Shown in pieces: positions 49,101 to 50,670 of a stretch of 64,000 nucleotides of DNA. The notes under the pieces are model-generated. The model worked only from the letters and a program-made list of their open reading frames with translations, made no database searches and had not been told where the DNA came from. Position numbers and translations under genes: made by a program. Source of the DNA: a virus (lineage: Duplodnaviria; Heunggongvirae; Uroviricota; Caudoviricetes); the IMG/VR virus record IMGVR_UViG_2875713109_000001, one strand, 5' to 3'. Within the stretch, counting starts at the first letter, position 1. Each line of letters begins with the position of its first letter.

Positions 49101-49209
49101 CTCCTTATCATTTCGTATGAGTGAATTGTACGTTTGATTCTGCTACGTGCAACTTATTTTGATTTGTGCGTAAATTATTGCACGTAAAAAATGGCGATGA
49201 GGCTATTAG

Positions 49210-49492
49210 ATGTGTGCTGGAGGGATGATGCAGGACCAGAATGTGCGATAGAGGGAAGTCGCATTGAATTATGTGTTGTGGAGGGATCGCTGGTATCAAA
49301 TATGTGCGCTGAAGGGAAAGATAGAAGATTAGATGTGCGCTGGAGGGAAACTTGGATGGTTAGATGTGTGCTGGAGGGAATGTCTGGGCAAACTGCGTGG
49401 CGCAACCCTCCAGCGCACACCAAAAACAGGAAAATGGGCAGGCATTCCCGGCAGCGCACATTTTTCAAATGCAGCTGCCCTCCAGCACACAC
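49210..49492. repeat. incA-type iteron array: 9 copies of ATGTGTGCTGGAGGGA-like repeat, 6 direct + 3 inverted
   Basis: Copies start ~49210, 49241, 49271, 49302, 49333, 49363 (31-bp phasing) and inverted at ~49407, 49447, 49478. Confidence 0.85.
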
Positions 49493-50353
49493 TTATTCGG
49501 GAAGTTTCAGCTTTGGATTGCGAGAATGGACGATTACAAAACTTTCCCGGCCTTTCTTCTCAATTGAACAGTCGAGATAGCCGATTGTTTTAAGCTGTTC
49601 TATCGCTTTCTTAATGATACGGTTTTGCTCGCCAACAGCTGACTGCAAAGCCAGGCGCTCACGGATTCGCGCGAACGATAGCGGCAACGGGTTCTGCGGA
49701 AGGCTTTCGATGAAAGTGTAAATGGCTTGTGCAGCTTCTTTCTTCGGAAGGGCACGCAAGGCGTGGTGTTGCAACAGAACGCGATAATCAAGCTGGAACA
49801 GCTCCCAGAGCTTCGAATCGGCCTCCAGCTCTATCAGATCAAGGTCAGCATCAAAACGCCCGACCTTCAGCAGACCAGTCTGATAGCCGCCTTTAGCATC
49901 TTTTCCGCGCTTAAAAGCGATACCCTTGTTACGCAAGCGTCCAAGTGATTCATGAATGGTTAAACGCAGTTTCGCATCCAGACGTTTTGAGGGGAAACCA
50001 CAGGCTTTAGCGAACTCCTGAAACGATAACTGGATGGTGTTTGAAGACAAGCCGTATTTGCTGAACGCGTAGATGACACCGATCCACGTTTTGAAATCAG
50101 TATCCATATCGAGTCGAGGACCGGTGATTTTAATATCATCGTAACCCTCGGCTTTAGCTATCTCCAGCTGGGAAAACGCTTTGGTGGCATCAATCTCTTT
50201 ACTTTCTCCTTTGCTCTTTGATGGCTTCGGCACGAATACCCCCAAGCGCATCAACGCTACAGGCTGCACAGTGTTGTTTGAATTAACTGTTAGTTCTTTT
50301 GCCTTACTTTCAATGTCTGCGTAAAGAATATCGGAGATAAATGATTGATTCAT
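49493..50353 (-). CDS. repA: plasmid replication initiator RepA (P1 type)
   Basis: 286 aa starting MNQSFISDILYADIESKAKEL; flanked by iteron arrays. Confidence 0.9.
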   Translation of the reverse strand: MNQSFISDILYADIESKAKELTVNSNNTVQPVALMRLGVFVPKPSKSKGESKEIDATKAFSQLEIAKAEGYDDIKITGPRLDMDTDFKTWIGVIYAFSKYGLSSNTIQLSFQEFAKACGFPSKRLDAKLRLTIHESLGRLRNKGIAFKRGKDAKGGYQTGLLKVGRFDADLDLIELEADSKLWELFQLDYRVLLQHHALRALPKKEAAQAIYTFIESLPQNPLPLSFARIRERLALQSAVGEQNRIIKKAIEQLKTIGYLDCSIEKKGRESFVIVHSRNPKLKLPE

Positions 50354-50412
50354 ATTACTTTTTCCGAATTATGTGGATAGTTTTTATAAGTGGTGATAAC
50401 TACCCAGGCTTT

Positions 50413-50512
50413 CCCGTCAGCACACATCCTATATCCCGCCAGCACACATTAGCAACCCGTCAGCACACATTTTTATCCCTCCAGCACACATCGTTTTCCC
50501 TCCAGCACACAT
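50413..50512. repeat. incC-type iteron array: 5 copies of CC(G/C)(T/C)CAGCACACAT at ~21-22 bp spacing
   Basis: Copies at ~50413, 50435, 50457, 50477, 50498. Confidence 0.85.
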
Positions 50513-50552
50513 CGCGATACACTTCTAAGCCAGACGTGGCGCGGCCTGCAAC

Positions 50553-50632
50553 GATCAGGGATCTATATGGATCTAATTGGGATCTGTATGGACCTAATTA
50601 TTGGATCTACCCAGTGGATAATGTGGATAAGT
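50553..50632. other. oriR-like origin core: five GATC-containing heptamers plus tandem DnaA boxes
   Basis: GATC at ~50553, 50560, 50571, 50581, 50603; AGTGGATAA-TGTGGATAA at ~50612-50629; another TGTGGATAG at ~50371. Confidence 0.7.
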
Positions 50633-50670
50633 GAAAAACCGGCCAACATAGCCGGTTGGAAGGAAGGGTA

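What the first reader, a model, noticed from the sequence alone, without database searches (positions are those of the whole stretch)
49200..50640. Complete P1-type plasmid replicon and diverged partition system confirm a phage-plasmid lifestyle
repA is bracketed by 9 downstream and 5 upstream iterons. Beyond the upstream array lie five GATC-containing heptamers and tandem DnaA boxes. ParB and the parS-like site differ from the P1 versions I recall, suggesting a distinct partition specificity.
Basis: partly seen in the sequence, partly recalled or inferred. Interest (0 to 1): 0.35.

Follow-up and report, generated by a model that had tools for sequence, protein, structure and literature searches.

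The report
P7-type plasmid replication and partition module
This stretch is the well-studied plasmid-maintenance cassette of a P1/P7-like phage that lives as a plasmid: a P1/P7 (IncY) replicon next to the phage-P7 version of the partition system, so it is real and intact but ordinary.

Summary
repA (49493-50353, minus strand) is followed by nine 19-bp iterons (incA). It is preceded by five iterons (incC), five GATC sites and two tandem DnaA boxes. The iteron motif occurs 14 times here against 0.5 expected in the whole window.

RepA is 100% identical in protein to both P1 and P7 RepA. The neighbouring partition system does differ from P1: ParB is 40% identical and ParA 57%. It is not a new specificity, though. 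ParB is 100% identical to P7 ParB and ParA differs from P7 ParA by one residue. Both specificity hexamers (box B) of parS and the par operator repeat are also identical to P7.

The 4-kb module is 97.7% identical to P7. Its parS-to-repA part differs at 1 of 3584 bases from the E. coli IncY plasmid p2017-03-3CC_3. More than 200 sequenced plasmids carry the same arrangement. The whole window is syntenic with P1, so the phage-plasmid reading holds.

Verdict: already known, low interest. The one mildly unusual point is that the non-contact spacers of parS fall into several very divergent haplotypes, while the protein-contact boxes stay fixed.

The parts
46799..46881 (-). parS centromere, P7 type. 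In par orientation: box B1 46876-46881 GTCCCG; box A1 46864-46870 ATTTCAT; IHF site 46848-46860; box A2 46821-46827 ATTTCAG; box A3 46813-46819 CTGAAAT; box B2 46808-46813 TTCCCA; box A4 46799-46805 ATTTAAC.
   Evidence: Positions were transferred from the P7 GenBank annotation and compared box by box. B1, A1, A2, A3 and B2 are identical to P7. P1 has TCGCCA at both B boxes. The IHF consensus positions are kept (TATCATnnnnTTA on the + strand). Across 7 P7-type alleles, 42/48 box or IHF-consensus positions are invariant against 9/35 other positions (Fisher p = 1e-8).
46927..47892 (-). parB, 321 aa, the centromere-binding protein of P7 type.
   Evidence: 100% identical in protein to P7 ParB, with 7 nucleotide differences, all synonymous. 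39.9% identical to P1 ParB. Pfam PF08775 ParB, E = 6e-33. Matches the P1 ParB structures 1ZX4 and 2NTZ at E about 1e-30.
47889..49100 (-). parA, 403 aa, a type Ia Walker ATPase with an N-terminal HTH repressor domain.
   Evidence: 402/403 identical to P7 ParA (N70D) and 57.1% to P1 ParA. Matches PDB 3EZ9 (403-residue ParA chain) at 884 bits, against 525 bits for 3EZ2 (398 residues, the length of P1 ParA). Pfam PF18607 (ParA HTH) and PF13614.
49144..49186 (.). par promoter/operator inverted repeat, TACGTGCAA-N25-TTGCACGTA.
   Evidence: The same perfect 9-bp arms and spacing occur in P7. P1 has an unrelated inverted repeat, TTTATGCTG...CATAAA.
49209..49493 (.). incA, the copy-number control locus, with nine 19-bp RepA iterons. 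Six are in one orientation (49209-49227, 49240-49258, 49270-49288, 49301-49319, 49332-49350, 49363-49381). Three are inverted (49403-49421, 49444-49462, 49475-49493).
   Evidence: for the repeats. Coordinates were transferred from the P7 annotation with an offset of 45148. This incA allele is 100% identical to E. coli plasmid NZ_CP081699 and 90% to P7.
49493..50353 (-). repA, 286 aa, the iteron-binding initiator (Rep_3 family).
   Evidence: 100% identical in protein to P1 and P7 RepA. The 7-10 nucleotide differences are all synonymous. Pfam PF01051 Rep3_N is above its cut-off.
50372..50380 (-). DnaA box (CTATCCACA, 8/9) in the repA leader, on the repA-proximal side of the origin.
   Evidence: The box is conserved in P1 and P7; one substitution in P1 lies just outside it.
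50410..50513 (-). incC, five 19-bp RepA iterons at 21-bp spacing inside oriR. The repA promoter is nested in them: -10 at 50426-50431 (TAGGAT) and -35 at 50450-50455 (TTGCTA) on the - strand.
   Evidence: for the iterons. Promoter positions were transferred from the P1 annotation with an offset of 45221. The alignment shows 1 substitution against P7 and 1 against P1 inside the array.
50553..50609 (.). Dam-methylation region of oriR: five GATC sites (50553, 50560, 50570, 50581, 50604) and five heptamers (GGATCTA/G four times, plus GGACCTA).
   Evidence: All five GATC sites are conserved in P1 and P7, and the window differs from each at only 1-2 other bases of this stretch. Both reference records annotate them as Dam sites 1-5.
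50613..50630 (-). Tandem DnaA boxes at the outer end of oriR: TTATCCACT and TTATCCACA.
   Evidence: Identical in P1 and P7, where the site is annotated as a DnaA binding site.
50410..50651 (-). oriR, the plasmid replication origin, as delimited in the P7 and P1 records.
   Evidence: Transferred from the P7 rep_origin feature, L001 5262-5503. The window has 3 differences from P7 between the start of incC and the DnaA boxes (50410-50632), plus a few more in the last bases beyond the boxes.

Best explanation
This is the plasmid-prophage maintenance region of a P1/P7-like phage (genus Punavirus). It joins the IncY iteron replicon shared by P1 and P7 to the P7 allele of the type Ia ParABS partition system.

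**Replication (mechanism inferred from the P1 literature).**
- RepA binds the five incC iterons inside oriR.
- Together with host DnaA at the flanking DnaA boxes, and with Dam methylation of the GATC heptamers, it opens the origin.
- The repA promoter lies inside incC, so RepA represses its own synthesis.
- The nine incA iterons downstream of repA bind RepA and pair with the origin ('handcuffing'). This holds the copy number near one per chromosome.

**Partition.**
- ParB, helped by IHF bending, wraps parS through its A boxes (HTH domain) and B boxes (C-terminal dimer domain).
- ParA, a nucleoid-bound ATPase, moves the ParB-parS complexes apart.
- ParA also represses the par operon at its own inverted-repeat operator.

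**Predicted incompatibility.** ParB and both B boxes are identical to P7, so the partition specificity, and with it partition incompatibility, should be that of P7 and not of P1. Replication incompatibility should be IncY, shared with both phages.

Shown here: sequence identity, anatomy, conservation and genomic context. Inferred: every biochemical step, by identity with the experimentally studied P1 and P7 systems.
For: **Similarity of the module.**
- The 4051-bp module is 97.7% identical to P7 AF503408 over its full length. P1 matches only the replicon part, at 96.1%.
- RepA is 100% identical to P1 and P7 RepA. ParB is 100% identical to P7 ParB. ParA is 402/403 identical to P7 ParA. Against P1, ParB is 40% and ParA 57% identical.
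- All nucleotide differences in repA and parB are synonymous.
- ParA matches the solved structure 3EZ9 at 884 bits.

**Cis elements.**
- There are 14 iterons against 0.5 expected.
- incA, incC, the GATC sites and the DnaA boxes align one for one with the annotated features of P1 and P7.
- parS boxes B1, A1, A2, A3 and B2 are identical to P7, while the P1 B boxes differ.
- The operator repeat is identical to P7 and unlike P1.
- In 7 natural alleles the parS boxes are conserved while the spacers vary (p = 1e-8).

**Occurrence elsewhere.**
- Window 46770-50353 differs at 1 of 3584 nt from the circular E. coli plasmid NZ_AP027786, which is typed IncY.
- 225 plasmid records and 202 complete E. coli genomes carry at least 80% of the module.
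- The window is syntenic with P1.

**Literature.** PMC10999674 gives the roles of the iterons, of IncY, and of box B as the discriminator of partition incompatibility. PMC9603915 reports IncY as one of two replicon types of P1-like phage-plasmids.
Against: - No function was tested here. Everything rests on identity with characterised systems.
- Box A4 (ATTTAAC) differs from P7 (GTTTCAC) at two positions.
- The IHF-arm spacer of parS is only about 85% identical to P7. A quantitative difference in partition efficiency or incompatibility strength from P7 therefore cannot be excluded.
- ParA carries one substitution (N70D) in its N-terminal region.
- The window does not include the immunity region, so lysogenic competence of the whole element was not assessed.
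Confidence: 0.95

Rival explanations
1. The partition system has a new specificity, distinct from both P1 and P7, because its parS allele has diverged (box A4, IHF arm, spacers).
For: - The parS interval is 86.7% identical to P7, while parB is 99.3% identical.
- Box A4 differs from P7 at two positions.
- This parS haplotype is rare: only 4 of 235 plasmid records are at least 95% identical to it.
Against: - ParB is 100% identical to P7 ParB.
- Both B boxes, which are the reported discriminators (PMC10999674, citing Dabrazhynetskaya 2005/2009), are identical to P7. So are A1, A2 and A3.
- The substitutions fall in positions that vary freely among alleles.
- The minimal ParB-binding site (A2-A3-B2) is unchanged.
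Confidence: 0.03
2. The module is a decaying remnant in a defective prophage or plasmid and no longer supports autonomous maintenance.
For: Many P1-like plasmids in databases are truncated or carry IS insertions. The nearest relative, NZ_AP027786, has an ISVsa5 element at the position of capsid gene 23.
Against: - All three ORFs are full length.
- Substitutions relative to P1 and P7 are almost all synonymous: 0 nonsynonymous in repA and parB, 1 in parA.
- Every cis site is intact.
- A near-identical module is the only replicon type that PLSDB's typing reports for circular plasmids typed IncY alone.
- Gene 23 is uninterrupted in the window.
Confidence: 0.02

Closest known systems
Phage P7 plasmid maintenance region (GenBank AF503408, 61.5-65.5 kb: parS-parB-parA-incA-repA-incC/oriR)
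   Same: - The gene order and orientation are the same.
- ParB and RepA are 100% identical and ParA is 402/403 identical.
- The parS B boxes and A1-A3 are the same, as is the par operator repeat.
- The number, orientation and spacing of the iterons are the same.
- Overall identity is 97.7%.
   Different: - The incA allele is 90% identical to P7.
- The parS spacers are about 87% identical and box A4 differs.
- ParA has N70D.
- The rest of the genome is about 97% identical to P7, so this is a different strain and not P7 itself.
Phage P1 plasmid replicon and par system (GenBank AF234172, 58.9-62.9 kb)
   Same: - RepA protein is identical.
- oriR, incC and incA have the same architecture, at about 96% identity.
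- The par operon has the same overall layout, with an IHF-centred parS.
   Different: - ParB is 40% and ParA 57% identical.
- The B boxes read TCGCCA in P1 against GTCCCG/TTCCCA here.
- The operator inverted repeat is unrelated.
- The partition specificity is therefore expected to differ.
E. coli IncY phage-plasmid p2017-03-3CC_3 (NZ_AP027786.1) and more than 200 similar plasmids
   Same: - There is 1 difference in 3584 nt across parS to repA.
- 225 plasmid records cover at least 80% of the module, the best at 98.5-98.7% identity.
   Different: That plasmid carries an ISVsa5 insertion at the position of gene 23, which the window lacks. Most other carriers have a different parS spacer haplotype.

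Membership tests
IncY (P1/P7) iteron replicon | RepA initiator of the P1 type (286 aa, Rep_3 fold) | tested here: met
   100% protein identity to P1 and P7 RepA. PF01051 is above its cut-off.
IncY (P1/P7) iteron replicon | Five 19-bp iterons (incC) in the origin at about 21-bp spacing, with the repA promoter nested in them | tested here: met
   Five copies lie at 50410-50513 with spacing of 21-22 bp. The promoter hexamers align with the P1 annotation.
IncY (P1/P7) iteron replicon | Nine iterons (incA) downstream of repA, six in one orientation and three inverted | tested here: met
   The layout corresponds one for one with the annotated copies 1-9 of P7 and P1.
IncY (P1/P7) iteron replicon | Cluster of Dam GATC sites and heptamers plus DnaA boxes flanking the origin core | tested here: met
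   There are five GATC sites, five heptamers, two tandem DnaA boxes and one repA-proximal box. The GATC sites and tandem boxes are conserved in P1 and P7.
IncY (P1/P7) iteron replicon | Autonomous low-copy replication and incompatibility with P1 and P7 | not testable with these tools
   Inferred only. A near-identical module is the only replicon type reported for circular plasmids typed IncY by PLSDB.
P7 par (P1par family, type Ia ParABS) | ParB identical or near-identical to P7 ParB, including the C-terminal discriminator domain | tested here: met
   321/321 identical. PF08775.
P7 par (P1par family, type Ia ParABS) | parS with an IHF site flanked by A heptamers and P7-type B hexamers | tested here: met
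   B1 GTCCCG and B2 TTCCCA are identical to P7. A1-A3 are identical and the IHF consensus is kept. Only A4 differs.
P7 par (P1par family, type Ia ParABS) | ParA with an N-terminal HTH and a P7-type operator | tested here: met
   PF18607 plus a Walker ATPase domain. 402/403 identical to P7 ParA and matches PDB 3EZ9. The operator repeat is identical to P7.
P7 par (P1par family, type Ia ParABS) | Partition incompatibility with P7 parS but not with P1 parS | not testable with these tools
   Predicted from the identical ParB and B boxes. Needs an in vivo incompatibility assay.
P1 par specificity (incB) | Box B hexamer TCGCCA and P1-type ParB | tested here: not met
   The B boxes are GTCCCG/TTCCCA, and ParB is 39.9% identical to P1 ParB.
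P1-like phage-plasmid (Punavirus) | Maintenance module embedded in a P1-syntenic phage genome, between gene 23 and upfA | tested here: met
   Window pieces are 96-98% identical to and collinear with P1, P7 and relatives. The flanking genes are the same as in P1 and P7.

The most novel reading that the evidence does not exclude
ParB is nearly invariant among carriers of the P7-type par system, yet the non-contact parts of parS fall into at least three deeply divergent haplotypes. These are 72-86% identical to each other, against about 99% for the adjacent parB, and the window carries the rarest one. The most novel reading is that these spacer, IHF-arm and box-A4 variants are maintained by selection. 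They might, for example, tune partition-complex geometry, or weaken partition-mediated incompatibility between co-resident P1-like phage-plasmids. The simpler alternative is relaxed constraint together with recombination.
Probability: 0.05. Interest if true: 0.4.

Novelty: already known. Interest (0 to 1): 0.08.

Why it matters
It matters mainly for annotation. The window can be labelled confidently as a P1/P7-like phage-plasmid with an IncY replicon and a P7-type partition system. That predicts it will be replication-incompatible with P1 and P7 and partition-incompatible with P7-type elements but not with P1-type ones. P1-like IncY phage-plasmids are tracked as vehicles of resistance genes (PMC9603915, PMC5786510), so correct typing is useful. 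No open question is touched.

Tried and rejected
- **P1-type par.** Rejected: ParB is 40% identical to P1 ParB, and the B boxes and the operator differ.
- **A new par specificity.** Rejected as unlikely: ParB is identical to P7 ParB and the B boxes are identical.
- **Salmonella phage SJ1 (OQ595196).** It appeared as a 99.5% hit. Its annotated CDSs abut with no intergenic DNA, so it cannot be used for cis sites.
- **Generic sigma-70 scan.** It found no promoter in 46650-50700. The known PrepA hexamers (TTGCTA, TAGGAT) fail its criteria. Promoter positions were therefore transferred from the P1 annotation, not predicted.
- **NCBIfam.** It has no model that reaches its cut-off for RepA, ParA or ParB beyond a generic ParB domain.
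- **Literature look-ups.** The P1 genome paper (PMC523184) is not held. PMC6090056 contained nothing on P1 incA. The classical P1/P7 papers (Ludtke, Hayes, Radnedge, Austin; Abeles, Chattoraj) are not in the library and are cited only as my own recollection or through PMC10999674.
- **Stray iteron-like hit.** The hit at 25176-25191 has 3 mismatches and lies within chance expectation.

Full report
**1. What is in the sequence**

On the minus strand, window 46.7-50.7 kb holds parS, parB (46927-47892, 321 aa), parA (47889-49100, 403 aa), a 100-bp promoter region, nine iteron repeats, repA (49493-50353, 286 aa), five more iterons, a GATC cluster and DnaA boxes.

- **Iterons.** The core ATGTGTGCTGGAGGGA with up to 3 mismatches hits 15 times in 64 kb, against 0.52 expected (0 of 100 shuffles reach 15). 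Fourteen hits lie in 49210-50512.
  - Six are on the + strand at 30-31-bp spacing and three are inverted. These nine form incA, downstream of repA.
  - Five lie at 21-22-bp spacing upstream of repA and form incC.
- **GATC sites.** They sit at 50553, 50560, 50570, 50581 and 50604.
- **Heptamers.** There are five: GGATCTA/G four times, plus GGACCTA. Four of the five GATC sites are therefore in heptamers.
- **DnaA boxes.** Two tandem boxes lie at 50613-50630, one of them a perfect TTATCCACA. A third lies at 50372-50380.

**2. What it is**

BLAST against phage records gives phage P7 (AF503408) at 97.7% over all 4051 bases. P1 matches only from incA onward, at 96.1%.

Protein comparison:

| Protein | vs P7 | vs P1 |
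|---|---|---|
| RepA | 100% | 100% |
| ParB | 100% | 39.9% |
| ParA | 402/403 (N70D) | 57.1% |

- All nucleotide differences in repA (7-10) and parB (7) are synonymous, and 6 of 7 changed codons in parA are. The genes are therefore under purifying selection.
- ParA matches the solved structure 3EZ9, a 403-residue ParA chain, at 884 bits. The 398-residue ParA chain 3EZ2 scores 525 bits.
- ParB matches the P1 ParB DNA-binding fragment 1ZX4/2NTZ.
- Pfam gives Rep3_N for RepA, ParA-HTH plus AAA_31 for ParA, and the ParB family domain for ParB.

**3. Cis sites**

The GenBank records of P7 and P1 annotate every iteron, Dam site, DnaA site, parS box and IHF site. Alignments put the window's elements in one-to-one register with them.

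- **oriR.** Between the start of incC and the DnaA boxes, the window differs from P7 at 3 positions, with a few more differences beyond the boxes. The DnaA boxes and all five GATC sites are identical.
- **incA.** It is 90% identical to P7 but 100% identical to a natural E. coli plasmid (NZ_CP081699). It is therefore a common natural allele.
- **parS, read in par orientation.**
  - B1 GTCCCG, A1 ATTTCAT, A2 ATTTCAG, A3 CTGAAAT and B2 TTCCCA are all identical to P7.
  - P1 has TCGCCA at both B boxes.
  - Box A4 is ATTTAAC here, GTTTCAC in P7 and ATTTCAC in P1.
  - The three substitutions in the IHF site fall in the unconstrained middle of TATCATnnnnTTA.
- **par operator.** The repeat TACGTGCAA-N25-TTGCACGTA (49144-49186) is identical to P7 and unrelated to the P1 operator.

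**4. Context and frequency**

- The whole window is collinear with P1 (about 11.1-75.9 kb) and with P7 at 96-98% identity. It carries structural, lytic-replication and methylase genes.
- The module sits between capsid gene 23 and upfA, as in P1 and P7. The phage-plasmid reading is therefore sound.
- The module is common. 225 plasmid records and 202 of 5426 complete E. coli genomes carry at least 80% of it.
- From parS to repA the window differs at 1 of 3584 bases from the E. coli IncY plasmid p2017-03-3CC_3.
- The literature already describes IncY as one of the two replicon types of P1-like phage-plasmids (PMC9603915) and describes P7-like plasmids (PMC5786510).

**5. Mechanism**

The mechanism is inferred from identity with the experimentally studied systems. 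It is summarised in PMC10999674 and, beyond that, drawn from my own knowledge of the P1 literature.

- RepA binds the incC iterons in oriR.
- With DnaA and a Dam-methylated GATC region, it opens the origin.
- RepA autorepresses from the promoter nested in incC.
- incA binds RepA and pairs with the origin ('handcuffing') to limit copy number.
- ParB and IHF assemble on parS. [quoted passage not shown]
- ParA segregates the complexes and represses the operon.
- ParB and both B boxes equal those of P7. Partition specificity should therefore be that of P7, and replication incompatibility should be IncY.

**6. A side observation**

The roughly 160-bp interval holding parS is far more divergent among carriers than the adjacent genes.

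- 235 plasmids match it. One is at least 99% identical, three are 95-99%, 101 are 80-90% (P7-like), and 130 are 60-80%.
- In seven alleles spanning that range, 42 of 48 box or IHF-consensus positions are invariant, against 9 of 35 other positions (Fisher p = 1e-8).
- This is a clean comparative footprint of the protein-contact sites. It supports function.
- It leaves open why the spacers fall into such old haplotypes next to a 99%-conserved parB. Recombination with relaxed constraint is the simple answer. Selection on partition-complex geometry or incompatibility is a low-probability alternative.

**7. Verdict**

The object is the known P7-type maintenance region in a natural P1-like phage-plasmid. 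Novelty: already known. Interest: low.

Noticed in passing
window 46770-46930 (parS and flanks): Among plasmids with a P7-type ParB, this interval falls into at least three divergent haplotypes. They are 72-86% identical to each other, while the adjacent parB is about 99% identical. The window's haplotype is the rarest: 4 of 235 records are at least 95% identical. Substitutions avoid the A and B boxes and the IHF consensus positions (p = 1e-8).
   Followed up: partly
window 49493-50353 and 46927-47892: repA differs from P1 and P7 at 7-10 nucleotides and parB differs from P7 at 7 nucleotides, yet no difference changes an amino acid. This points to strong purifying selection on both proteins.
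   Followed up: yes
L009 1501-1622 (E. coli pHum4b, NZ_OR724977, IncHI1B/HI2A conjugative plasmid): A parS-like sequence with P7-type A2-A3-B2 (ATTTCAGACTGAAATTCCCAC) occurs on a large IncHI plasmid. PLSDB lists no gene under it, so it may be a related member of the P1par family.
   Followed up: no
L005 1077-2400 against window about 45170-45183 (gene 23): The nearest relative of the module (p2017-03-3CC_3) has an ISVsa5 element at the position of the major capsid gene 23. In the window gene 23 (44954-46681) is uninterrupted.
   Followed up: partly
L004 (Salmonella phage SJ1, OQ595196): In this 24.5-kb 'complete genome' record the annotated CDSs abut with no intergenic DNA. The iterons, oriR and parS are absent from it, so it should not be used as a reference for cis elements.
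   Followed up: partly
window 50637-50657 (- strand): A terminator-like hairpin (AACCGGC...GCCGGTT followed by a T run) lies directly after upfA (50671-51063) and just before the DnaA boxes. It could shield oriR from read-through transcription. It is largely conserved in P1 and P7, with one or two substitutions in the loop.
   Followed up: no
window 54132-56396 (+ strand): A 754-aa ORF carries motifs typical of cytosine-C5 and adenine-N6 (Dam-like) methyltransferases, judged by eye. It corresponds to the gene annotated dmt in P1 and relatives. From my own knowledge, a phage-encoded Dam activity is relevant to an origin that depends on GATC methylation.
   Followed up: no
window 47889-49100: RefSeq annotates parA in related plasmids as 401 codons (1206 nt). 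The P7 GenBank record and the PDB 3EZ9 chain use the 403-codon start that is present here. This is a trivial start-site discrepancy.
   Followed up: no
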